DNA from: an uncultured Gammaproteobacteria bacterium
GTDB taxonomy: Bacteria; Patescibacteriota; Patescibacteriia; Patescibacteriales; UBA12465
NCBI GenBank assembly: GCA_964440365.1
Contig: CAYTRX010000003.1
Location: 1-43,128 of the forward strand
Length of the DNA stretch: 43,128 bases
Direction: 5' to 3'
Both the position numbers and the translations under genes were made by a program. The notes under the pieces were generated by a model, which was given only the letters and a program-made list of their open reading frames with translations, was not told the origin of the DNA and did not search any database. Shown in pieces: positions 251-26,292 of the stretch (within the stretch, counting starts at the first letter, position 1; each line of letters begins with the position of its first letter).

Positions 251-350
251 TTTTTATAAAGAGCGCAGTGAGGGAAATAGCCCGATGACCTGCTAGTAAC
301 CCTGAAGTAAACCATTCAGAAGGTGCTAAATCTAGCCCTAGATGGAAAAA
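251..350 (+). promoter_or_regulatory. SAM-I (S-box) riboswitch aptamer
   Basis: The conserved S-box blocks occur in canonical order: P1 5' strand TTTTTATA, AAGAG, GAGGGA, GCCCGATGA (k-turn), GTAACC, P3 hairpin CTGAA/TTCAG, AAGGTGCTAAATCTAGC, a short P4 hairpin, and P1 3' strand TGGAAAAA. Matched by eye to the known yitJ/metF-type consensus; no covariance model was run. Confidence 0.7.
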
Positions 351-461
351 ATAAAGGTCAATTTTTTATTTTCATCAATAAAAACTCTTTCTCAATCGTG
401 TGTATTTTTGGCGGATTGGTAGGAATTGTTATTAGGGGTATTACTTTATTAATAAAAAAAT

Positions 462-11484: not shown

Positions 11485-13845
11485 ATGAAGGATAATATGA
11501 CTCCCAAGAAGTTTTATTGTTTAGATATGTTTCCTTATCCATCAGGCTCTGGATTACATGTTGGTCACGTTGAAGGCTATACAGCTTCTGATATTTTTAC
11601 TCGTTATAAAAAGATGAACGGTTTTGCTGTTATTCATCCGATGGGTTGGGATTCCTTTGGTTTACCAGCTGAAAACTATGCTATTAAAACCGGTATTCAT
11701 CCCGCTCAAACTACTGATGCGGCTATTGCTACTTTCAAAAAGCAAATGAATAATCTTTCACTGGCTTATGATTGGGAGCGAGAAATTAAAACTTCTTCAC
11801 CAGAATATTATAAATGGACCCAATATTTATTTTTACTTTTATATAAAAATGGCTTGGCTTATAGAAAAAAAGCTCAGGTTAATTGGTGTGAAAAATGTTC
11901 TACGGTTTTAGCTAATGAACAGGCCGAGAATGGAATTTGTGAACGTTGTGGTGGAGCTTTAATACAAAAAGATTTAGAGCAATGGTTTTTCAAAATTAGT
12001 GATTTTATTGAAGACCAAGAATATCAGGGACGTCAGATTAAAGGCTTAATTAATGGCTTAGATGATGTTGATTGGCCAGCAACTACCAAAACAGCCCAAA
12101 TTAATTGGATTGGAAAAAGTTTAGGGGCGCAAATTGATTTTAAGGTTAATACTAAATCAAAACAAGAATATAATTTAAGAGTTTTTACTACTCGTCCTGA
12201 CACCTTATACGGTTGCACTTTTATGGTTGTTAGTCCGGAACACGAAATGATAGAGAAATTACGTGATAGCATTGAAAATTTAGAAGAAGTAGATAATTAT
12301 ATCAAGCAAAGTAAAAGCAAAACAGAAATGGAAAGACTTTCCAATAATAAAGATAAGAGCGGGGTTGAAATAAAAGGTTTAACAGCTATAAATCCAATTA
12401 ATCAAAAAAATATTAAAATTTTTGTGGCTGATTATGTTTTGTCAACTTATGGTTTTGGAGCAATTATGGCTGTACCAGCTCACGATGAAAGAGATTATGA
12501 ATTTGCTAAAAAATATAATTTAGAAATTATTGAAGTTATTAGTGGTGGCGATATTAGTCAAACTGCTTATAGTGGTACTGGAACTATTATTAACTCAGAG
12601 CTCATCAATGGCCTAGAAATAAAGGAAGCCCAAGAAAAAATAATAAAATTTTTGGAAGAGCAGGGGATTGGGCAAAAAAGTATTAATTATCGTTTACGTG
12701 ATTGGTTAATATCCCGTCAAAGATATTGGGGCGCTCCTATCCCAATTATTTATTGTGATCATTGTGGTGAAGTTCCTGTCCCAGAAAAAGACTTACCTGT
12801 TTTATTACCTGACGATGTTGATTTTTTGCCAAATGGAGAATCACCTTTAAAATATTCCGAGTCTTTTCATCAGGTTTCTTGTCCTCAATGTGGACGAGCT
12901 GCTCGACGAGAAAACGATACGATGGATACCTTCGTTTGTTCTTCTTGGTATTATTTTAGATATCTTGATCCGAAAAATACCGAAGAGTTCGCTAGTCAAG
13001 AAAAAATAAATACTTTGATGCCAGTTGATTTATATATTGGAGGGGCTGATCATAGTGTTATGCACTTACTTTATGCTCGTTTTATGACTAAGGTTTTACA
13101 TAAATATGGCTATACCAATATCAATGAGCCTTTCAAAAAACTACGTCATCAGGGCATGATTTTAGCCGAGGATTCGAGCAAGATGAGTAAGTCCAAGGAT
13201 AATGTCGTTAATCCAGATGATGTAATTGCTGAATATGGTTCAGATACCTTACGGATGTATGAAATGTTTATGGGCCCCTTAGAAGATCCTAAACCTTGGA
13301 ATACCAAAAATATTTTAGGAGTAAAAAGATTTTTAGAAAAAGTAGAAGCTCTATCTGATAATTTAAGTGAAGCCGGGGAAGATAATAAAGAACTTTTGAT
13401 TGAATTAAATAAAAGTATTAAAAAGGTTAGTGAAGATATTGAAGATTTAAAATTTAATACCGCAATTTCTCAATTGATGATCATGCTTAATGTTTTTGCT
13501 AAGGCGGAAAAAAATAATAAAAAACATTTCTCTACCTTTTTAATTCTTTTAGCTCCTTTTGCTCCAGTTTTGAGTGAAAAACTTTGGTACAAACTAGGAC
13601 ACTCCGAATCTATTTTTTCTGAAAAATGGCCAAGCTTTGATGATTCATTAATCGCTGAAGGAAAAATAAAATTAGCGGTGCAAATTAATGGCAAAACTAG
13701 ATCAACAATTGAGATCAGCCAAGACGCCAGTGAAGAAGAGGTAATTAAGCTTGCTCAAGCTGATAAAAACGCTGGAAAATATTTAAGCAATTCTTATCAA
13801 AAAGTTATTTATGTTAAAAATAGAATTATTAATTTTATTATTTAA
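11485..13845 (+). CDS. leuS: Leucyl-tRNA synthetase
   Basis: HVGH (HIGH) and KMSKS motifs, an editing-domain insertion and Zn-binding Cys pairs. Full length, 786 aa. Confidence 0.95.
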   Translation: MKDNMTPKKFYCLDMFPYPSGSGLHVGHVEGYTASDIFTRYKKMNGFAVIHPMGWDSFGLPAENYAIKTGIHPAQTTDAAIATFKKQMNNLSLAYDWEREIKTSSPEYYKWTQYLFLLLYKNGLAYRKKAQVNWCEKCSTVLANEQAENGICERCGGALIQKDLEQWFFKISDFIEDQEYQGRQIKGLINGLDDVDWPATTKTAQINWIGKSLGAQIDFKVNTKSKQEYNLRVFTTRPDTLYGCTFMVVSPEHEMIEKLRDSIENLEEVDNYIKQSKSKTEMERLSNNKDKSGVEIKGLTAINPINQKNIKIFVADYVLSTYGFGAIMAVPAHDERDYEFAKKYNLEIIEVISGGDISQTAYSGTGTIINSELINGLEIKEAQEKIIKFLEEQGIGQKSINYRLRDWLISRQRYWGAPIPIIYCDHCGEVPVPEKDLPVLLPDDVDFLPNGESPLKYSESFHQVSCPQCGRAARRENDTMDTFVCSSWYYFRYLDPKNTEEFASQEKINTLMPVDLYIGGADHSVMHLLYARFMTKVLHKYGYTNINEPFKKLRHQGMILAEDSSKMSKSKDNVVNPDDVIAEYGSDTLRMYEMFMGPLEDPKPWNTKNILGVKRFLEKVEALSDNLSEAGEDNKELLIELNKSIKKVSEDIEDLKFNTAISQLMIMLNVFAKAEKNNKKHFSTFLILLAPFAPVLSEKLWYKLGHSESIFSEKWPSFDDSLIAEGKIKLAVQINGKTRSTIEISQDASEEEVIKLAQADKNAGKYLSNSYQKVIYVKNRIINFII

Positions 13846-13847
13846 TT

Positions 13848-15476
13848 ATGTCAGCCTTATATCAAAAATATCGTCCCCAAAAATTTTCTGAAATCTTCGG
13901 TCAAAATCACATTAAGCTAAGCTTACAAAATGGGATTCTGCGTCAACAGATTTCACACGCCTATTTATTTTGTGGTCCCCGAGCGGTTGGTAAGACAACT
14001 TTAGCACGTGTTTTTGCCAAGGCCATTAATTGTCAAAATCGATCGGAAAAAGATTTTGAACCCTGCAATGCTTGTCCCATTTGTGAGAGCATTAATAATT
14101 TTAGCAATTTAGATATTATTGAAATTGATGCCGCTTCCAATACCGGTGTTGATAATGTTCGAGAAAATATTATATCTCTAAGTCGGGTTAAATCTTCCAA
14201 TAATAAATATAAAGTTTTTATCATTGATGAAGTGCATATGCTTTCTCTCTCAGCTTTTAATGCTTTGCTTAAAACCTTGGAAGAGCCACCGAAAAATGTT
14301 GTTTTTATTCTTTGTACCACCGAAGTTTATAAAGTGCCACTAACAATCATCTCTCGTTGCCAACGTTTTGACTTTAAAAGAATTGGTGTTAACGATATGG
14401 TAAAAAAATTGGAGCATATTATTAAAAATGAAAAACTAGAGGTTGATAGGGAAGTCTTGGATTTAATTGCCTTAAAATCAGATGGACATTTACGTGATGC
14501 TGAGAGCTTATTGAGCCAAATTATTGCTATTTCTGATCGAAAAATTGATTTAGCCAGCGCTAATTTAATTATTCCTTATAACGATCTTGAGGAAAATATT
14601 AAAATACTAGAAGCGATTAGTAAAAAAGATTTAAGTACGGCTATTAAAATAATAAATGAAATTAGTCGAAATAATATTAATTTAAAAAATTTTTTAAATG
14701 ATTTAATTGAATTATTGCGCAAGATGATTTTAAGTAAGGTTAACGCTTCTTTGCCTAGTGCTTTAGGTTTGGATTTAGGTGAAAAATTAGAAATTAAGAT
14801 CAATAATTTGAATCAAGCCTTTTCCTTGTCCGATTTAGTAATGATGAGCGAAGAGTTTTTAGAGGCCAGTAAAAAATTAAATACCGCTTTAATTATCCAA
14901 CTGCCTATTGAGTTAGCTTTAATTTCTATTTATAGCAAGCTTGACTCTACTACAAAAACTTTCATTAAAGAGACCAGGGAGAAAGACTGTGAGCAAGAAA
15001 CCATTACCAATACCAAAAAAGAAGAAAAACAGGAAAATTTAAATAAAGCCGAAGAAGATGCTTTGTCTAAAAAAGAAATTGAAGACTTTAAAAAAAATCA
15101 AATAAATAAGGAAGTTTCAATCAATAAAGATGAGGTGCTTTCACTTCAGGATATTAAATCTGGTTGGACTGAATTTGTTAATAAGCTAAAACCTCATAAT
15201 CACTCCTTATCTTTTATCTTGCAGAGTTGTAAAATTAGCGGACTTCAAGATCAAAAAATTTCTTTGTCTTTTAAATATCGTTTTCATAAGGATCGTCTTG
15301 ATAGTCCAGAAATGAAAAAAGTAGTAGAGGATGTTTTGCGTGAAGTTTTTTGCCATGATTTAAAAGTAGAAACAGAGGTTGACGAAAATTTAGAATTAAA
15401 TAATAAAAAAGATAAGTCACAAAATCAGATTATTGATAATCTATTAAAAACTTTTGGTGGACAAGTCATCAATTAA
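13848..15476 (+). CDS. dnaX: DNA polymerase III subunit gamma/tau
   Basis: GPRAVGKTT P-loop, the CNACPIC zinc module, IIDEVHML and SRCQRF sensor motifs. Confidence 0.9.
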   Translation: MSALYQKYRPQKFSEIFGQNHIKLSLQNGILRQQISHAYLFCGPRAVGKTTLARVFAKAINCQNRSEKDFEPCNACPICESINNFSNLDIIEIDAASNTGVDNVRENIISLSRVKSSNNKYKVFIIDEVHMLSLSAFNALLKTLEEPPKNVVFILCTTEVYKVPLTIISRCQRFDFKRIGVNDMVKKLEHIIKNEKLEVDREVLDLIALKSDGHLRDAESLLSQIIAISDRKIDLASANLIIPYNDLEENIKILEAISKKDLSTAIKIINEISRNNINLKNFLNDLIELLRKMILSKVNASLPSALGLDLGEKLEIKINNLNQAFSLSDLVMMSEEFLEASKKLNTALIIQLPIELALISIYSKLDSTTKTFIKETREKDCEQETITNTKKEEKQENLNKAEEDALSKKEIEDFKKNQINKEVSINKDEVLSLQDIKSGWTEFVNKLKPHNHSLSFILQSCKISGLQDQKISLSFKYRFHKDRLDSPEMKKVVEDVLREVFCHDLKVETEVDENLELNNKKDKSQNQIIDNLLKTFGGQVIN

Positions 15477-15497
15477 AATAAATATTAAAATAAATAT

Positions 15498-16754
15498 ATG
15501 CTAGATATTAAAAAAATACGTGAAGAGAAAGATTCTATTGAAAAATCTCTAAGAAAAAGATTGGGGGCTGAAGCCTTAATTGATTTAGACACAATTATCA
15601 ATTTAGATGATCAAAGGAAAGATTTAATTCCACGTTTAGAATCTTTACAGGCAGAAAAAAATAAATTATCTAAAATAAAACCTGATCCAGAAACTATTGA
15701 GAAAATAAAAACAAGCAGTATTGAAATTAAAAAACTGGAAGAAGAGTTAGCATCACTTGAAAATAGTTTAAAAGAAGCTTTGTTAGCTCTACCCAATATT
15801 GTCGCTGATGATGTTGTGGCTGGTGGTAAGGAAAATAATAAAGTTTCTTATACTTTTGGTGTTCAGCCTAAATTTGATTTTCCAGCTAAAAATCACATGG
15901 ATTTAGCTGAAGATTTGGATATTATTGACTATAAACGAGCCGCTAAGATGTCTGGCTCTGGTTTTTGGGTATATAAAGGTTGGGGAGCCTTGTTGGAATG
16001 GGCTTTATTATCGTATTTTATTTTTTATCATAGTAAAAATAATTATACTTTTTTAATTCCACCCTTTCTTTTAAATGAGGCTTCAGCCTATGCCTCTGGT
16101 CATTTACCAAAATTTGGGGAAGATTTATTTTGGTTAAAAGATGAAAATCTTTGTCTTAATGCTACAGCTGAAATGATGTTGGGTAATTTTCATCGCGATG
16201 AAGTTTTAAATGAAAAAGATTTGCCCTGTCGGTATATTGCTTATTCTGCTTGTTTTAGACGAGAGGCTGGTTCTTATCGTCAAGAAGAGCGGGGCATGAT
16301 TCGAGGGCATCAATTTAATAAAGTAGAAATGTTTCAATATACCAAACCAGAAAAATCTTGGGAAGCTTTTGCGGAAATGAAGGAACAAGCAACAAAATTA
16401 TTAGAAAGTCTAGGTTTACATTTTCAAATTAGTGATTTAGCAGCAGGCGATTGTTCAGCCGCTATGGCTAAAACAGTTGATTTAGAAGTCTATATTCCGA
16501 GCATGGGAACTTATCGTGAAGTTTCTTCAATTTCTAATGCTTTAGATTACCAAGCTCGTCGAGGAAATATTCGTTATAAGGCCTCTGATGGAAAAAATTA
16601 TTTTCCTCATACTTTAAATGCCTCGGGCTTAGCAACCTCTCGTCTGATTCCAGCTATTTTAGAACAAAATCAACAAGCTGATGGCTCAGTTATTATCCCC
16701 GAAGTTTTACGTCCTTTTATTCCGGGAAACCCAAGTATAATTAAAAAGGCCTAA
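15498..16754 (+). CDS. serS: Seryl-tRNA synthetase
   Basis: N-terminal coiled-coil arm and a class II core (FRREAGS.., GHQFNKVEMF, ..TLNASGLATSR). Confidence 0.95.
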   Translation: MLDIKKIREEKDSIEKSLRKRLGAEALIDLDTIINLDDQRKDLIPRLESLQAEKNKLSKIKPDPETIEKIKTSSIEIKKLEEELASLENSLKEALLALPNIVADDVVAGGKENNKVSYTFGVQPKFDFPAKNHMDLAEDLDIIDYKRAAKMSGSGFWVYKGWGALLEWALLSYFIFYHSKNNYTFLIPPFLLNEASAYASGHLPKFGEDLFWLKDENLCLNATAEMMLGNFHRDEVLNEKDLPCRYIAYSACFRREAGSYRQEERGMIRGHQFNKVEMFQYTKPEKSWEAFAEMKEQATKLLESLGLHFQISDLAAGDCSAAMAKTVDLEVYIPSMGTYREVSSISNALDYQARRGNIRYKASDGKNYFPHTLNASGLATSRLIPAILEQNQQADGSVIIPEVLRPFIPGNPSIIKKA

Positions 16755-16758
16755 AACC

Positions 16759-17688
16759 ATGAGAGTACTTCTAACAATAATTTTTTATTCTTTTTATTTA
16801 CTTTTTCCTTTAATTATTTTTCTTTTTCTGGTTTTATGGCGACAAAAAGAAAAATCAATTGAATTAATTTTTTTAATAATTTTTTTTCTTTTTTTATTAT
16901 GGGCTCGTTTTGCCGAACCACATATTTTAAGAGTAAAAAAATATAATTTTTTTACTTCTTCGACATTAAACGAAGAAGAGAGAGAAAAAAAATCTTTAAA
17001 AATTGTTGTTTTTTCTGATTTACATGTTGGTGTTTTTCGTCAGCCTCGAAAAATAGAGCGAGTAGTAAACAAGGTTAATAAGTTAAAACCAGATTTAGTT
17101 TTAATTCCAGGTGATTTTGTTTATTATTCTCGAGTTGAAGATTTAGAAGAGCAATTATCTGCTTTAGCCAAATTAGAAGCTCCGGCCGTAGCTGTTTTAG
17201 GTAATCATGATTATGGTAAAAAGAAAAAGGATTTATCAAGAAATATTAGTTCCGTTTTAGAAGCTAAAGGTGTTTTAATGTTGGATAATAAAATAAAGCA
17301 ATTATTTATTAAAAATCAAAAAATAGAAATAATTGGTTTGGCTGATATTTGGGCAGCTGAGCCTGATTATAGTATTTTACAAGAAACATCTGCTGATGCT
17401 GATTTAAGCTTAATTCTCGCTCATAATCCAGATACTGCTTATAAGATTTTGCAAGAAGAGGGGATTGAAGCTCACTATGACTTAATGATTTCCGGTCATA
17501 CTCATGCTGGTCAAATTAGATTTCCTTTCTTATACAAGCACCTGATTCCTAGTCGTTATGGTTTTGACCAAGGTTTTTATAAAGTATCCGGTCGTGATGT
17601 TTTTGTTAGTGGCGGAATAGGGAATTCGGCTCTACCTTTACGTCTGTTTATTTTCCCTGAAATTAGCTTGATAAATATTGACTTTTAG
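16759..17688 (+). CDS. Membrane-anchored metallophosphoesterase (YkuE/calcineurin-like)
   Basis: FSDLHVG, GDFV, GNHD and GHTHAGQ motifs after two N-terminal TM helices. Confidence 0.8.
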   Translation: MRVLLTIIFYSFYLLFPLIIFLFLVLWRQKEKSIELIFLIIFFLFLLWARFAEPHILRVKKYNFFTSSTLNEEEREKKSLKIVVFSDLHVGVFRQPRKIERVVNKVNKLKPDLVLIPGDFVYYSRVEDLEEQLSALAKLEAPAVAVLGNHDYGKKKKDLSRNISSVLEAKGVLMLDNKIKQLFIKNQKIEIIGLADIWAAEPDYSILQETSADADLSLILAHNPDTAYKILQEEGIEAHYDLMISGHTHAGQIRFPFLYKHLIPSRYGFDQGFYKVSGRDVFVSGGIGNSALPLRLFIFPEISLINIDF

Positions 17689-17730
17689 TATTAATAATTT
17701 CTTTATATTTTTATAATTAATAAAAATAAT

Positions 17731-17931
17731 ATGCCCACTTCAACAAAAAATAAATTTAATGATTTTAATAAGCTTTATAGTTTATCAAAAACCTTAAGAT
17801 TTGAACTAAAACCAATTGGAAAAACTAGAGAAAATATAGAAAAAAATAACCCCAGTTTTATTAAAGATAAAGAAATTAAAGAAGCTTATCAAATTTTAAA
17901 AGAAGAAGAACCCTTAGTCTTTTTTTCTTAA
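17731..17931 (+). pseudogene. cas12a: cas12a (cpf1) N-terminal stump, 66 codons
   Basis: [31 protein letters not shown] is the hallmark Cas12a N-terminus (compare FnCas12a [26 protein letters not shown]). Similarity ends near codon 57, and a stop follows 9 codons later. No other frame continues the protein. Confidence 0.8.
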
Positions 17932-18110
17932 AAAGAGAAGGCTCTTTAACAATAATTATTTTAAATCAAAAGTATAAGTCACTATGTTGGTTATTATTGG
18001 TTTTTCAAAACCTCAGTCCTTATTTTTTAAAATCTCGCTATAATGGGCCTAAAGTCATGAAGCTTCATGCTCATTTGTATCTTTTCGTGCCTATTATAGC
18101 GGGATTGACT

Positions 18111-18269
18111 ATCTATAACCACTATAAGATTTCTACTTTTGTAGATATTCCTAGCTTGGAGCATATCTCTTATCTATAACCACTATAAGATTTCTACTTT
18201 TGTAGATATTCTTTTATACCATTATGGGTATATATCTATAACCACTATAAGATTTCTACTTTTGTAAAT
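18111..18269 (+). CRISPR. Type V-A mini CRISPR array: 3 repeats of 36 nt, 2 spacers
   Basis: The repeat is ATCTATAACCACTATAAGATTTCTACTTTTGTAGAT, found at 18111-18146, 18172-18207 and 18234-18269. The third copy has a G-to-A change (GTAAAT). The 3' end TCTACTTTTGTAGAT is the Cas12a crRNA handle hairpin. Spacers are 25 nt (18147-18171) and 26 nt (18208-18233). Confidence 0.85.
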
Positions 18270-18281
18270 ATAAATTAAATT

Positions 18282-18309
18282 AGATATTAGATTAAATATC
18301 TTTTTTTTG
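18282..18309 (+). terminator. Rho-independent terminator directly after the array
   Basis: AGATATT/AATATCT stem with a 6-nt loop, followed by 8 T. Confidence 0.55.
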
Positions 18310-18350
18310 TTATAATATAACATAAACAATTTAGATAAATTTAAATAAAA

Positions 18351-20405
18351 ATGAGGCAAAATGTCAGAAAAATACTTATATTTGCTATATTTCTCGCAGT
18401 TTTTTTTGTTTTTCCCAACTCTTCGGCTTTAAGCAGAAAAACTGAATTTCCTAAAATAGCTAATTATTTTCTCAAATGGACCATTGAAGATCACGAAGTG
18501 CCCGCTTTAGCCAAGTGGGATCTTTTAGTTTTGGATATGGAAGTGCAGGAAAATAGTCGAGAAAATCTAAAAAAAATCCGCCAATTAAATCCTAAAATTA
18601 TTATTCTGGCTTATATCACTTCACAAGAAGCTAATGCTGATATCTATAATAGCCCTTGGAGTTCTAAGGCTACTTTAAGAAAAAAATTGATTAATAATAT
18701 TGATGATTCTTGGTGGTTAAAAGATAACAATAATACTCGAATTAGTTTTTGGCCGGGAACCAATATGCTTAATTTAAGTAATTATGCCGGAGTTAATAAT
18801 CAGGGAAAACGATGGAATGATTTTTTGCCGGAATTTGTTAAAAATGAAATTATTTCTACTGGTCTTTGGGATGGTGTTATGTATGATAATATTTGGGGCG
18901 ATATTGTTTGGGTAGATAATAAAATTAGTATTGATGGTAGCGGACAAATTAAATCAATTAACAAAACAAATACTGCTTGGGCTAATGGAGTAAAAAAAAT
19001 GCTAATAAAAACTCGACAATTATTTGGACCAAATTATTTAATTTTAGCTAATGGTCGAGTTCATTTAGCTTATCAAGACGCTTTAAATGGAGTTTTATTT
19101 GAAAGTTTTCCTGCTGAATGGGAAAGTAGTGGTGATTGGGGGAAGATTTTAACAACTTATTCTGATATCCAAAAAGTAAATCAAAGTCCTCAAGCTAGTA
19201 TTATTAATTCTTCTGATTCTAGCCAATATAGTTATCAAAAAGTCCGCTTTGGTTTAGGGAGCGCTTTACTCGGAAATACATCTTATTTTTCTTTTGATTT
19301 TGGTCCCAGCGATCATAGCCAAACTTGGTGGTATGACGAATATGATGTTAATTTAGGAAAAGCACAATCCGCTCCCTATAATTTATTAGATAAAAATAAT
19401 TCTTCTTATAAAAAAGGTTTATGGCGACGAGATTTTGAAAAGGGGATTGTGCTTGTTAATTCCACCGATGTTGAACAAACTTATGTTTTTAAAAATGAAG
19501 AATTTGAAAGATTGAATGGCAGTCAAGATCGCAGCGTTAATAATGGTTCAGTAATCAACTTTATTAAAATGCGGCCTAATGATGGCGTAATTTTATTTAA
19601 AAAGAATTCAATTGTCAGCACTATTAAAAATAGTAGCTTTAATAATGGTGATTTTATTCGTGTTTTTGACTACGAAGGTCGGCAAACTCGAAGCAGTTTC
19701 TTTGCTTATTTAGAAAACTTTCCTGTTAATTCTCAAATTTTAATTAGTGATATTGATGATGATGGTTATGATGAAACCTTGGTTAATAGTAAGGGAATTA
19801 TCAGTATTTATAAAAATGGTGTAAAAATTAATGAATTTAAACCTTACGATGGACTTTTTAAAGGCGAAATTTCTTTTGCGGTAGCTGATTTAAATGATGA
19901 TGGCACCAAAGAAATAATCACTGGAGCCGGGCAGGGAGGTGGTCCACATGTCAGAATTTTCTCTAAAGAAGGCCGATTATTAACCGGAGGGTTTTTTGCT
20001 TATGATCAAAATTTTAGAGGCGGGGTTCGGGTAGCGGTAATGGATCTTGATGGTGATGGCAATAAAGAGGTTATTACGGCCGCTGGTTTAGGTGGTGGTC
20101 CACATATCAGGGTTTTTGATAAAGATGGTCGACCTTTGACTGGGGGATTTTTTGCTTATGAACAAAATTTTAGAGGAGGTGTTTCTTTAGCTACTGGAGA
20201 TGTTAATGGTGATGGCGAACGAGAAATTATTACCGCTCCTGGTCAAGGAATGCGTCCTGAAATAAAAATATTTACTAAGGATGGGAAATTTTTAAAATCA
20301 TTTTTGGCTTACGAAAGCAGTTTTACCTCTGGTCTCAGAGTAATGAGCGATGATCTAGGATCTGATGGCATTTTTGAAATTTTAAGCGGAACCATTAGTT
20401 TTTAA
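18351..20405 (+). CDS. Secreted protein with C-terminal FG-GAP/VCBS-like repeats; N-terminal domain possibly glycoside-hydrolase-like
   Basis: Signal peptide (ILIFAIFLAVFFVFPNSSA). Repeated D-x-[DN]-x-D-G...E-[IV]-I-T and GGGPH-[IV]-R-[IV]-F units in the last ~250 aa. Assignment of the N-terminal domain is tentative. Confidence 0.7.
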   Translation: MRQNVRKILIFAIFLAVFFVFPNSSALSRKTEFPKIANYFLKWTIEDHEVPALAKWDLLVLDMEVQENSRENLKKIRQLNPKIIILAYITSQEANADIYNSPWSSKATLRKKLINNIDDSWWLKDNNNTRISFWPGTNMLNLSNYAGVNNQGKRWNDFLPEFVKNEIISTGLWDGVMYDNIWGDIVWVDNKISIDGSGQIKSINKTNTAWANGVKKMLIKTRQLFGPNYLILANGRVHLAYQDALNGVLFESFPAEWESSGDWGKILTTYSDIQKVNQSPQASIINSSDSSQYSYQKVRFGLGSALLGNTSYFSFDFGPSDHSQTWWYDEYDVNLGKAQSAPYNLLDKNNSSYKKGLWRRDFEKGIVLVNSTDVEQTYVFKNEEFERLNGSQDRSVNNGSVINFIKMRPNDGVILFKKNSIVSTIKNSSFNNGDFIRVFDYEGRQTRSSFFAYLENFPVNSQILISDIDDDGYDETLVNSKGIISIYKNGVKINEFKPYDGLFKGEISFAVADLNDDGTKEIITGAGQGGGPHVRIFSKEGRLLTGGFFAYDQNFRGGVRVAVMDLDGDGNKEVITAAGLGGGPHIRVFDKDGRPLTGGFFAYEQNFRGGVSLATGDVNGDGEREIITAPGQGMRPEIKIFTKDGKFLKSFLAYESSFTSGLRVMSDDLGSDGIFEILSGTISF
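19935..20246 (+). repeat. Two tandem 156-nt (52-codon) in-frame coding repeats (FG-GAP units)
   Basis: Unit GGGPHVRIFSKEGRLLTGGFFAYDQNFRGGVRVAVMDLDGDGNKEVITAAGL versus GGGPHIRVFDKDGRPLTGGFFAYEQNFRGGVSLATGDVNGDGEREIITAPGQ. More diverged units flank them. Confidence 0.8.
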
Positions 20406-25326: not shown

Positions 25327-26292
25327 ATGAATAAAGCTGAAAAACCAATAATTAAATACTTGACTGATTTTATAAATTATTGTGAGATTGAAAAAGGCCT
25401 CGCCTCTAAAACTCAGGAAAATTACTCTCGTTTTTTGGGTGATTTTTTTACTTGGTTAGAAAAAAATAATCTAGCTAACTTAAAACCAAGTCAATTAAAT
25501 GAAGAGCACATTTGGCGTTATCGTCTTTATCTTTCTCGGCACACAAGTTTACGTCGTAAAGTTGAATTAAAAAAAGCTAGCCAAAATTTATACCTCATTG
25601 CCCTGCGATCTCTCCTAGAATATTTTTCCGAAAAAAATATTAAATCTTTAGCCCCTAATAAAATAAAATTAGCTAAGGATAATGCTGATCGGGAAATTAA
25701 TTTTTTAAACTTGGAGCAAATAAAGAAATTGATGGAGGCCGTTGATACCTCAACCGAGCCGGGTTTAAGAGATCGCGCTATTTTAGAGACTTTATTTTCT
25801 ACTGGTCTTCGAGTGGCTGAACTTTGTGCGCTTAATCGAGATCAGATCAAAATTGATCAAAAGACCAAAGATTTAGAAATTGTAATAATTGGCAAAGGTA
25901 GTAAAATAAGAACGGTTTATTTTTCTCAACGAGCTGTTTACTGGTTAAAAAAATATTTAGATAAGCGAAGTGATTTAGATAATGCCCTTTTTATTAATTA
26001 TTGGCGAGCTGCTAAAAAAGGTAATATTGATCGACGTCTAAGTGTCAAAAGCGTTGATGAAATAATGAAAAAATATGTAAAAATTGCTGGTTTGCCAAGT
26101 ATTTCTACCCCTCACACCCTAAGACATTCCTTTGCCACCAATCTTTTGGCTAAGGGAGTTGATCTACGTTTAGTACAAGAATTTTTAGGTCACAGAAATA
26201 TCGCTACTACTCAAATATACACTCATGTTACCAAAAAACAATTGCGCGATATTCATCGAGATGTTTATTCAGACAATAGTTTAGATGAATAA
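25327..26292 (+). CDS. xerC: Tyrosine recombinase, XerC/XerD family
   Basis: N-terminal SAM-like core-binding domain and C-terminal catalytic residues (..RDRAILETLFSTGLRVAEL.., HTLRHSFATNLL, GHRNIATTQIYTHV). XerC versus XerD, or a single-Xer system, cannot be decided. Confidence 0.85.
   Translation: MNKAEKPIIKYLTDFINYCEIEKGLASKTQENYSRFLGDFFTWLEKNNLANLKPSQLNEEHIWRYRLYLSRHTSLRRKVELKKASQNLYLIALRSLLEYFSEKNIKSLAPNKIKLAKDNADREINFLNLEQIKKLMEAVDTSTEPGLRDRAILETLFSTGLRVAELCALNRDQIKIDQKTKDLEIVIIGKGSKIRTVYFSQRAVYWLKKYLDKRSDLDNALFINYWRAAKKGNIDRRLSVKSVDEIMKKYVKIAGLPSISTPHTLRHSFATNLLAKGVDLRLVQEFLGHRNIATTQIYTHVTKKQLRDIHRDVYSDNSLDE

What the first reader, a model, noticed from the sequence alone, without database searches (positions are those of the whole stretch)
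17731..18309. Decayed type V-A CRISPR locus: 66-codon Cas12a stump, no adaptation genes, but a transcription-ready 3-repeat array
The ORF at 17731 begins with the unmistakable Cas12a N-terminus (..[21 protein letters not shown]..) but loses similarity at about codon 57 (nt ~17900) and stops at 17931. About 180 nt later come three 36-nt repeats ending in the Cas12a handle TCTACTTTTGTAGAT. The spacers are 25 and 26 nt, the distal repeat has a G-to-A change, and an intrinsic terminator follows. Roughly 3.5-5 kb (the rest of cas12a plus cas4, cas1 and cas2) is absent, and housekeeping genes flank the locus. Four explanations are possible. One is genuine erosion of the defence locus. A second is an orphan array serviced in trans by a Cas12a encoded elsewhere, since Cas12a processes its own crRNA and needs no tracrRNA. 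A third is retention of crRNA-like transcripts for a non-defence role. The fourth is a metagenomic assembly collapse. A speculative extra point: the retained peptide covers the first WED-domain strands that contact the repeat RNA.
Basis: partly seen in the sequence, partly recalled or inferred. Interest (0 to 1): 0.7.

Follow-up and report, generated by a model that had tools for sequence, protein, structure and literature searches.

The report
Recently deleted Cas12a CRISPR locus remnant
An uncultured Patescibacteria (CPR) bacterium lost all four genes of its Cas12a CRISPR defence locus in one clean 5.4-kb deletion that left a 66-codon fusion stub, the leader and a two-spacer array; because sister strains carry intact, differently deleted and empty versions of the same site, this is ordinary recent gene loss, not a new kind of system.

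Summary
ORF 17731-17931 starts with a true Cas12a N-terminus. After a 179-nt leader come three 36-nt V-A repeats, the last with G->A, separated by spacers of 25 and 26 nt.

An intact allele of the same site was found in other samples: SerRS, metallophosphoesterase, cas12a (1259 aa), cas4, cas1, cas2, leader, repeat, GHL15. Its flanks are 99.8-99.9% identical to the window.

The window carries a 5,382-bp (1,794-codon) deletion. It runs from cas12a codon 58 to cas2 codon 84. The 66-aa ORF is therefore an in-frame fusion of Cas12a(1-57) and Cas2(85-93, EEEPLVFFS).

The same junction appears in assemblies of five other sequencing runs. The breakpoints share no sequence. Assembly collapse is therefore excluded.

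Other strains show a 5,754-bp deletion that also removes the array, cas-positive alleles whose array has collapsed to one repeat, and an empty site. An 88%-identical copy of the cassette sits elsewhere in a more distant genome.

The deletion is recent, and the leader is 0/209 different from the intact allele, so survival of the array needs no selective explanation. No protospacer, self-target or second cas12a was found. Use in trans remains untestable.

A side finding is a covariation-supported structured leader module (18005-18110). It is shared by 26 of 80 V-A loci and absent from Rfam.

The parts
17689..17730 (+). Intergenic region upstream of cas12a. It is the left edge of the V-A cassette and contains a promoter-like TTTATA-17-AATAAT.
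   Evidence: Identical to the intact allele L089 5200-5241. The promoter-like match is 9/12 and no better than chance. Similarity to the repeat (a possible standalone repeat unit) was tested and rejected: 72% of shuffles score as high.
17731..17901 (+). cas12a codons 1-57 (N-terminal WED strands and the start of REC1).
   Evidence: 100% identical to codons 1-57 of the 1259-aa Cas12a of L089. Matches PDB Cas12a chains at E 4.7e-8.
17901..17902 (.). Deletion junction. 5,382 bp are missing relative to the intact allele (L089 5413-10794). There is no microhomology.
   Evidence: blastn and direct reading of both breakpoints. The same junction is present in L001-L005.
17902..17931 (+). cas2 codons 85-93 (EEEPLVFFS) plus the native TAA stop, fused in frame to cas12a codon 57.
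   Evidence: Identical to L089 10795-10824, the end of the 93-aa Cas2. The Cas2 C-termini of 14 related V-A loci end ..EE(E)xx[ILV][ILV]F[FML]x*.
17932..18110 (+). Complete CRISPR leader (179 nt).
   Evidence: 0/209 mismatches to L089 10795-11003. The distance from the cas2 stop to repeat 1 is 164-192 nt in relatives.
18005..18110 (+). Conserved structured leader module. It consists of an AAACC-N4-GTCYTTAT box (18008-18023), an outer helix (18031-18048 / 18089-18106), an AAAG/CUUU helix, an internal loop with conserved UC and UUGUAU, and an inner hairpin.
   Evidence: Covariance-model hit of 67.8 bits, E 1.9e-9. Covariation is 92.5% paired against 74.6% in shuffles, with 106 double-change cells against 33. 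The RNA fold gives -38.4 kcal/mol, z -5.2. Rfam has no match at gathering threshold; the relaxed scan gave only chance-level hits to unrelated families.
18111..18146 (+). Repeat 1 (ATCTATAACCACTATAAGATTTCTACTTTTGTAGAT).
18147..18171 (+). Spacer 1 (25 nt).
   Evidence: Unique in the window. No protospacer found.
18172..18207 (+). Repeat 2, identical to repeat 1.
18208..18233 (+). Spacer 2 (26 nt).
   Evidence: Unique in the window. No protospacer found.
18234..18269 (+). Terminal repeat with G->A at 18267.
   Evidence: The same variant is the only repeat left in the cas-positive alleles L089, L102 and L088.
18282..18308 (+). AT-rich hairpin plus T8 at the right edge of the cassette; a weak terminator candidate.
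   Evidence: RNA fold -7.9 kcal/mol, z -2.0. Not detected by the G+C-rich terminator scan.

Best explanation
This is the remnant of a type V-A CRISPR-Cas cassette that lost its genes in a single recent deletion.

The deletion removed 5,382 bp, from cas12a codon 58 through cas4 and cas1 to cas2 codon 84. It joined the two ends without microhomology and, by chance, in frame. The result is a 66-codon Cas12a(1-57)::Cas2(85-93) ORF under the old cas12a promoter. Everything downstream of the cas2 stop is untouched: the 179-nt leader, two canonical repeats, two spacers, the degenerate terminal repeat and the terminal hairpin.

What is shown: the deletion, its exact end points, its presence in several independent samples, and the co-existence in the species of intact, otherwise deleted and empty alleles.

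What is inferred: the array may still be transcribed, either from its leader or by read-through from the cas12a promoter 380 nt upstream. Without Cas12a, which itself matures V-A crRNAs (established knowledge), the transcript cannot be processed or used. The array is therefore a non-functional relic that has simply not had time to decay.
For: Intact allele at the same site:
- L089 (SRR13001971) and L090/L102 (SRR13001970) carry SerRS, an identical metallophosphoesterase, cas12a (1259 aa), cas4 (182 aa), cas1 (316 aa), cas2 (93 aa), leader, repeat and GHL15.
- Window 13001-17901 equals L089 512-5412, and window 17902-18148 equals L089 10795-11041.
- The L089 Cas12a aligns end to end with FnCas12a (E 1e-154).
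- tblastn of the four Cas proteins against the window finds only Cas12a 1-57 and the Cas2 tail.

The junction is real:
- The same junction, leader and start of repeat 1 occur in contigs from SRR31904127, SRR25621789, SRR25621790, SRR25621791 and SRR27197515.

The deletion is recent:
- Mismatches to L089 are 3/4901 in the left flank, 9/4197 in the right flank and 0/209 in the leader.

The locus is unstable in this population:
- L093 and L094 carry a 5,754-bp deletion that also removes the array.
- L092, L095 and L096 end exactly at that branch point.
- L089, L102 and L088 have arrays collapsed to one terminal-type repeat.
- L103 is cas-positive with a different leader-proximal spacer.
- L097 and L098, about 98% identical strains, have an empty site.

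Other checks:
- TGA is a normal stop codon here, so no recoding hides a longer gene.
- No cas gene lies elsewhere in the window.
Against: - The complete genome is not available, so a second cas12a able to use this array cannot be ruled out.
- Transcription of the array was not and cannot be measured here.
- Reads from the window's own sample could not be mapped, so the number of repeats (three) could be an under-count if the assembler collapsed the array.
- The in-frame junction at an exact codon boundary could in principle reflect selection, but the chance expectation of 1 in 3 is high.
Confidence: 0.9

Rival explanations
1. Orphan array serviced in trans. A Cas12a encoded elsewhere in the same genome, or on a resident mobile element, processes and uses the two crRNAs.
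For: - Cas12a needs no tracrRNA and matures its own crRNA (established knowledge).
- The leader and the canonical repeats are intact.
- Distant arrays often match a cas cluster encoded in trans in complete genomes: 75% of distant arrays do (PMC7145637).
- An 88%-identical cassette whose repeat has an identical 3' handle exists in a related genome (L106).
Against: - No cas gene is found in the 43-kb window.
- Intactness of the array is fully explained by recency: 0.13% flank divergence predicts about 0.3 changes in the leader.
- No protospacer was found for either spacer.
- From general knowledge, CPR genomes are about 1 Mb and rarely carry even one CRISPR-Cas system.
- L106 belongs to a different organism, with housekeeping genes only 70-75% identical.
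Confidence: 0.06
2. The array, the leader transcript or the 66-aa fusion peptide has been retained for a non-defence role, such as regulation or a crRNA-like RNA.
For: - crRNA-like mini-arrays that regulate genes exist in several CRISPR types, and repeat-like elements are common in V-A loci (10.1101/2023.03.03.530964).
- The fusion is in frame.
Against: - Such regulators need the effector, which is gone.
- Neither spacer has a partial match (up to 3 mismatches) anywhere in the window. blastn-short against the window plus 1.3 Mb of related loci found no match beyond chance (longest 16 nt, E about 1).
- Other strains lose the array as well (L093, L094) or have an empty site (L097, L098), so nothing indicates that it is needed.
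- There is no conservation signal beyond recency.
Confidence: 0.02
3. Assembly artefact. A metagenomic assembler joined the start of cas12a to the end of cas2 and collapsed the locus.
For: Intact and deleted alleles co-exist in the species, and some contigs stop at allele branch points (L092, L095, L096).
Against: - Contigs from five other runs, three accession series apart, carry the identical junction.
- The breakpoints share 0 nt, and the nearest shared string (TTCACGAAGAA, 11 nt) is offset by 21 nt and shorter than any assembly k-mer.
- The junction lies in unique coding sequence, not in a repeat.
Confidence: 0.02

Closest known systems
Canonical type V-A CRISPR-Cas loci of Patescibacteria/CPR, for example the PeCpf1 locus of Peregrinibacteria GW2011_GWA2_33_10 (L027 here)
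   Same: - The same gene order in the intact allele: cas12a-cas4-cas1-cas2-leader-array.
- The same 36-nt repeat with the handle AUUUCUACUUUUGUAGAU.
- The same spacer length of 25-27 nt.
- The same structured leader module.
   Different: The window retains only 57 codons of cas12a and 9 codons of cas2, so it has no effector and no integrase.
Remnant of a lost V-A locus in Francisella hispaniensis (Shmakov et al. 2023, 10.1101/2023.03.03.530964)
   Same: A V-A locus is missing between the same flanking genes that hold it in relatives, leaving repeat-derived debris.
   Different: - In Francisella the remnant is a standalone repeat unit next to the last degenerate repeat, which suggests repeat-to-repeat recombination.
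- Here the break lies inside two coding sequences, has no homology, and leaves the leader and a working-looking array.
- No standalone repeat unit lies upstream of cas12a here.
Orphan and distant CRISPR arrays in complete genomes (Bernheim et al. 2019, PMC7145637)
   Same: A short array without neighbouring cas genes. Orphan arrays are short on average and are interpreted as remnants or as arrays used in trans.
   Different: Here the origin of the orphan state is caught directly: the parental allele is available and the deletion is mapped to the base.
crRNA-like regulatory mini-arrays (CreR/crlRNA type)
   Same: Two to three repeats with one or two spacers next to cas sequence.
   Different: There is no effector. 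The spacers have no partial target in the window (up to 3 mismatches) and only chance-level matches in the fetched loci. The repeats are the ordinary array of the intact locus.

Membership tests
[quoted passage not shown] | Full-length Cas12a effector with RuvC and Nuc domains | tested here: not met
   Only codons 1-57 remain in the window. The intact allele L089 has 1259 aa with the REC1, PI-like, RuvC and NUC Pfam domains.
[quoted passage not shown] | Adaptation module cas4-cas1-cas2 | tested here: not met
   Only the last 9 codons of cas2 remain.
[quoted passage not shown] | CRISPR array of ~36-nt repeats with the 3' handle UCUAC-N3-5-GUAGAU, on the same strand as and downstream of the cas genes | tested here: met
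   Three repeats at 18111-18269 on the + strand, with a handle identical to that of 25 of the 26 aligned V-A loci.
[quoted passage not shown] | Leader adjoining the first repeat | tested here: met
   The 179-nt leader is identical to that of the intact allele and contains the conserved leader module.
Deletion remnant (pseudogenised locus) | An intact homologous allele at the same chromosomal site, with both breakpoints mappable | tested here: met
   L089, L090, L102 and L103. The breakpoints are L089 5412/5413 and 10794/10795.
Deletion remnant (pseudogenised locus) | The junction is reproducible in independent data | tested here: met
   Contigs from five other runs carry it.
Orphan CRISPR array (sensu Bernheim 2019: no cas cluster in the genome) | No cognate cas cluster within 20 kb | tested here: met
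   No cas gene within 17.7 kb upstream or 24.8 kb downstream.
Orphan CRISPR array (sensu Bernheim 2019: no cas cluster in the genome) | No cognate cas cluster anywhere in the genome | not testable with these tools
   Only one 43-kb contig is available. The species is not among the GTDB representatives (best Cas12a N-terminus 63%), and the repeat is absent from the JGI metagenome contigs.
crRNA-like regulatory mini-array | A spacer partially complementary to a promoter or gene of the host locus | tested here: not met
   Neither spacer matches elsewhere in the window with up to 3 mismatches. blastn-short against the window and the fetched loci gave only chance-level matches.
Any Rfam RNA family (for the leader module) | A match at or near the gathering score | tested here: not met
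   The only hit at gathering threshold in the window is a SAM riboswitch at 251-357. The relaxed scan of 17690-18360 gives only chance-level hits to unrelated families.

The most novel reading that the evidence does not exclude

Its layout is a conserved AAACC-N4-GTCTTTAT box followed by three nested helices. The outer and inner helices covary freely. They enclose an asymmetric internal loop with the near-invariant sequences AAAGUC and UUG(U/C)AUCUUU. The module ends about 10 nt before repeat 1.

A covariance model finds it in 26 of the 80 V-A loci fetched from GTDB, mostly CPR. It is always on the array strand, always abuts the first repeat, and occurs nowhere else in those loci.

Francisella V-A integration needs at most 3 nt of leader in vitro (PMC13034035). 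The module is therefore more likely an RNA-level element of the pre-crRNA 5' end, acting in stability, in folding insulation of the first repeat or in regulation, than an integrase docking site. The cas-less allele in this window would then be a natural test case for what the module does without Cas proteins.
Probability: 0.5. Interest if true: 0.55.

Novelty: new member of a known kind. Interest (0 to 1): 0.32.

Why it matters
Loss of CRISPR-Cas and the origin of orphan arrays are usually inferred from presence/absence patterns. Here the event is caught within one species of an uncultured CPR bacterium, with the parental allele, the exact breakpoints and at least four other structural states of the same 5.9-kb cassette:
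- a cas-positive allele with a growing array;
- a cas-positive allele whose array has collapsed;
- a deletion that removes the cas genes and the array;
- an empty site;
- a horizontally transferred copy elsewhere.

This is a clean worked example that orphan V-A arrays can arise by non-homologous deletion inside coding sequence, and that an intact-looking leader and array is no evidence of function when the deletion is recent. It does not change how V-A systems are thought to work. The structured leader module is the only part that could open a new question.

Tried and rejected
1. Alternative genetic code hiding a longer gene. Rejected: the stump ends in TAA, and TGA ends 2 of 30 long ORFs and never occurs in frame.
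2. The end of the ORF as frameshifted cas12a. Rejected: it is the cas2 tail.
3. Microhomology-mediated deletion. There is none at the junction. An 11-nt direct repeat (TTCACGAAGAA) lies 21 nt inside the left side and spans the right breakpoint, but a simple crossover there would give a different product.
4. A standalone repeat unit upstream of cas12a, as in many V-A loci. Not significant.
5. Protospacers. Four exact 20-mer scans of IMG/VR and blastn against GenBank phages and PLSDB plasmids gave nothing above chance.
6. Self-targeting as the cause of the loss. There is no match in the window or in 1.3 Mb of related loci.
7. The same repeat in JGI metagenome contigs. No hit.
8. The window's own genome in the GTDB representatives. 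Not present.
9. Spurious ORFs over the array, used as handles to find more array variants. They are not on record.
10. Direct look-up of the L089 Cas2.
11. A sigma-70 promoter in the leader. Hexamer matches are at chance level, and the conserved box does not fit the -35/-10 spacing consistently.
12. The first covariance model used an RNAalifold structure with only 7 pairs, because MAFFT mis-registered AAAGTC in nine sequences. Covariation was therefore counted on alignment A2 instead.

Full report
**1. Observation**

The sequence is as described.
- ORF 17731-17931 encodes 66 aa. Residues 9-57 align to residues 3-50 of solved Cas12a proteins (best 6iv6, E 4.7e-8; 26 Cas12a chains in all).
- 179 nt after the stop codon there are three 36-nt direct repeats at 18111-18146, 18172-18207 and 18234-18269. 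The start-to-start spacing is 61 and 62 nt.
- The repeats end in the Cas12a handle TCTACTTTTGTAGAT. The third carries G->A at 18267.
- The spacers are 25 and 26 nt.
- The window has no ORF longer than 825 aa. tblastn with the four Cas proteins of the intact allele finds nothing in the window except the stump and the cas2 tail.
- The flanking genes are housekeeping: DnaX, SerRS and a calcineurin-like phosphoesterase upstream, and a GHL15/FG-GAP protein downstream.
- The organism is a low-G+C (31%) bacterium that uses the standard code. Its closest named LeuRS relatives are 'Patescibacteria group bacterium' at 72% identity.

**2. The parental allele and the exact lesion**

I looked up the exact neighbouring phosphoesterase protein in public assemblies. 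This returned contigs in which the same site holds a complete V-A locus.
- L089 (SRR13001971) and L090/L102 (SRR13001970) read SerRS, phosphoesterase, cas12a (1259 aa; REC1, PI-like, RuvC, NUC), cas4 (182 aa), cas1 (316 aa), cas2 (93 aa), leader, repeat, GHL15.
- That Cas12a aligns end to end with FnCas12a (residues 9-1259 to 6-1299, E 1e-154).
- Window 13001-17901 equals L089 512-5412 (3 mismatches in 4,901). Window 17902-18148 equals L089 10795-11041. The right flank differs at 9 of 4,197 positions.

The window therefore lacks L089 5413-10794, which is 5,382 bp or 1,794 codons.
- The left breakpoint is the boundary between cas12a codons 57 and 58.
- The right breakpoint is the boundary between cas2 codons 84 and 85.
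- The 66-aa ORF is an in-frame fusion of Cas12a(1-57) and Cas2(85-93, EEEPLVFFS), ending at the native cas2 stop.
- The Cas2 assignment was already visible from 14 related V-A loci, whose Cas2 proteins end ..NEEEEILFF..HEEEELIFFK and the like.
- The breakpoints share no base. An 11-nt direct repeat (TTCACGAAGAA) lies nearby, but it is offset by 21 nt on the left side, so a simple crossover there does not give the observed product.

**3. Not an assembly artefact**
- The 66-aa protein is encoded on contigs from five other runs: SRR31904127, SRR25621789, SRR25621790, SRR25621791 and SRR27197515.
- These contigs are identical to the window through the junction and the leader. They stop inside repeat 1, at the point where a k=31 graph must branch if there are at least two repeats.
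- The junction lies in unique coding sequence.

**4. A locus in flux**

The same site shows further states.
- L093 and L094 (ERR6222548, ERR6222540) carry a 5,754-bp deletion (L089 5328-11081) with 2 nt of microhomology. It removes everything from cas12a codon 29 to beyond the array and leaves a 30-aa ORF.
- Contigs L092, L095 and L096 stop exactly at that branch point.
- L089, L102 and the k141 contig L088 have only one repeat, of the terminal G->A type. L089 and L102 are cas-positive; L088 begins inside the leader. The array has collapsed in that lineage.
- L103 (ERZ21942150) is cas-positive with a different leader-proximal spacer. Adaptation has therefore been active in the species.
- L097 and L098, about 98% identical in the flanks, have an empty site with a short unrelated intergenic stretch. 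L099 and L100, which share the same phosphoesterase variant, carry cas12a.
- L106 and L107 (NCBI GCA_040364275.1 and GCA_040436515.1) hold the whole cassette at 87.7% nucleotide identity over 5,847 nt, with 24 repeats. It sits next to different genes, and the housekeeping genes there are only 70-75% identical to the window's. The cassette therefore moves horizontally.
- L006 (ERZ965088) has the long allele with TGA instead of AGA at codon 93. Four of its nine differences from L089 fall in the last 80 nt of the contig, so this is weak evidence.

**5. What the remnant does**
- Shown: the leader (0/209 differences) and the two canonical repeats are untouched.
- Inferred: the array can still be transcribed, from whatever promoter the leader holds or by read-through from the cas12a promoter, which is now 380 nt upstream.
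- It is established that Cas12a itself matures V-A crRNAs. Without it the transcript is inert.
- Flank divergence is 0.13%. About 0.3 substitutions are therefore expected in the leader by drift alone, so its perfection says nothing about selection.
- Neither spacer has a match in IMG/VR (four exact 20-mer scans), in GenBank phages or PLSDB plasmids, in the window itself, or in 1.3 Mb of related loci.
- Use in trans cannot be excluded without the genome, but nothing supports it. The species is not among the GTDB representatives and its repeat is not in the JGI metagenome contigs.

**6. Comparison with what is known**
- Orphan and distant arrays make up 12% and 23% of arrays in complete genomes. 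Orphans are short on average and are regarded as remnants or as arrays used in trans (PMC7145637).
- A lost V-A locus leaving repeat debris between conserved neighbours has been described in Francisella hispaniensis (10.1101/2023.03.03.530964).
- The present case is the same kind of thing with a different scar. The break is non-homologous and inside two genes, and the leader and array are spared.
- It fails the membership test for a functional V-A system, having no effector and no integrase. It meets the test for a deletion remnant.
- Whether it is an 'orphan' in the strict genome-wide sense is untestable here.

**7. Side finding: a structured leader module**

The leaders of many fetched V-A loci share a module that ends at repeat 1.
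- An alignment of 26 leaders gives an RNAalifold consensus of three nested helices.
- On that structure 92.5% of cells pair, against 74.6% in shuffles and 39-50% when partners are slid. There are 106 double-change cells against 33, and no shuffle out of 500 reaches the observed values. All 9 outer-helix pairs and all 4 inner-hairpin pairs covary.
- The sequences AAAGUC and UUG(U/C)AUCUUU that line the internal loop, and an upstream AAACC-N4-GTCTTTAT box, are nearly invariant.
- A covariance model finds the module in 26 of the 80 GTDB V-A loci plus the window and L089. It is always on the array strand, always abuts the first repeat, and has no copies elsewhere in 1.18 Mb.
- The window's copy (18005-18110) folds at -38.4 kcal/mol, z -5.2.
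- Rfam has no match, and two full-text searches found no description of it.
- In F. novicida no more than 3 nt of leader matter for integration in vitro (PMC13034035). This argues for an RNA-level role, but that is inference only.

**8. Verdict**

The explanation is ordinary: a recent, non-homologous, in-frame deletion of the cas genes in one lineage of a population in which this cassette is repeatedly gained, trimmed and lost.

Noticed in passing
window 18005-18110 (also L007, L009, L011, L013, L014, L018, L020, L021, L024-L027, L033, L043, L046, L056, L058, L063, L065, L071, L072, L075, L076, L078, L081, L082, L089): A conserved, covariation-supported structured module in the leader of V-A arrays. 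It has an AAACC-N4-GTCTTTAT box and three nested helices with an invariant internal loop (AAAGUC / UUGYAUCUUU), and it ends about 10 nt before repeat 1. It matches no Rfam family and was not found in the literature searched. Its function is unknown.
   Followed up: partly
L106 4675-11960 and L107 (NCBI GCA_040364275.1, GCA_040436515.1) compared with L089 5214-11045: The whole V-A cassette recurs at 87.7% nucleotide identity, with 24 repeats, at a different chromosomal position in a genome whose housekeeping genes are only 70-75% identical to the window's. This points to horizontal transfer of a self-contained cassette of about 5.9 kb.
   Followed up: partly
L097 6029-6082 and L098 (strains about 98% identical in the flanks): An empty site. 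The phosphoesterase stop is followed by a small hairpin (TGACT-TTT-AGTCA) and a T-run, then GHL15. In cassette-bearing strains the cassette appears to be inserted within that terminator hairpin, and the cassette ends in a hairpin of its own in front of the same T-run.
   Followed up: partly
L089 11005-11040, L102, L088 147-182: L089 and L102, which are cas-positive, and L088, which starts inside the leader, have an 'array' of a single terminal-type (GTAAAT) repeat and no spacer. The gene-less window allele keeps two spacers. L103, another cas-positive contig, has a different first spacer. Array content and cas content decay independently.
   Followed up: yes
L093 3125-3217, L094 1419-1511: A second, independent deletion of 5,754 bp with AT microhomology removes cas12a from codon 29 onward, cas4, cas1, cas2, the leader and the array, leaving a 30-aa ORF. 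Three further contigs (L092, L095, L096) stop exactly at its left breakpoint.
   Followed up: yes
L006 2654-2656: The long allele in a wastewater assembly (ERZ965088) has TGA where L089 has AGA (cas12a codon 93). This may be a nonsense allele, but 4 of the contig's 9 differences lie in its last 80 nt, so it may be an end-of-contig error.
   Followed up: partly
L089 5428-5438 and 10789-10799 (the left copy is deleted in the window; the right copy's last 5 nt survive at window 17902-17906): An 11-nt direct repeat, TTCACGAAGAA (..HEE.. in both Cas12a and Cas2), lies 21 nt from the left breakpoint and spans the right one. It may hint at a two-step event or at misalignment, but it does not explain the junction.
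   Followed up: partly
window 251-357 (+): A SAM riboswitch (RF00162, 54.1 bits, E 7.5e-10) lies upstream of the 401-aa ORF at 462-1667.
   Followed up: no
window 19938-20233: A 156-nt tandem duplication (1.9 copies, 75% identity) lies inside the GHL15/FG-GAP gene. It corresponds to repeated FG-GAP units.
   Followed up: no
window 25327-26292 (+): A 321-aa ORF. Its counterpart in the related loci L097, L101 and L102 carries Phage_integrase (tyrosine recombinase) domains, about 7 kb downstream of the cassette site. No link to the deletions was examined.
   Followed up: no
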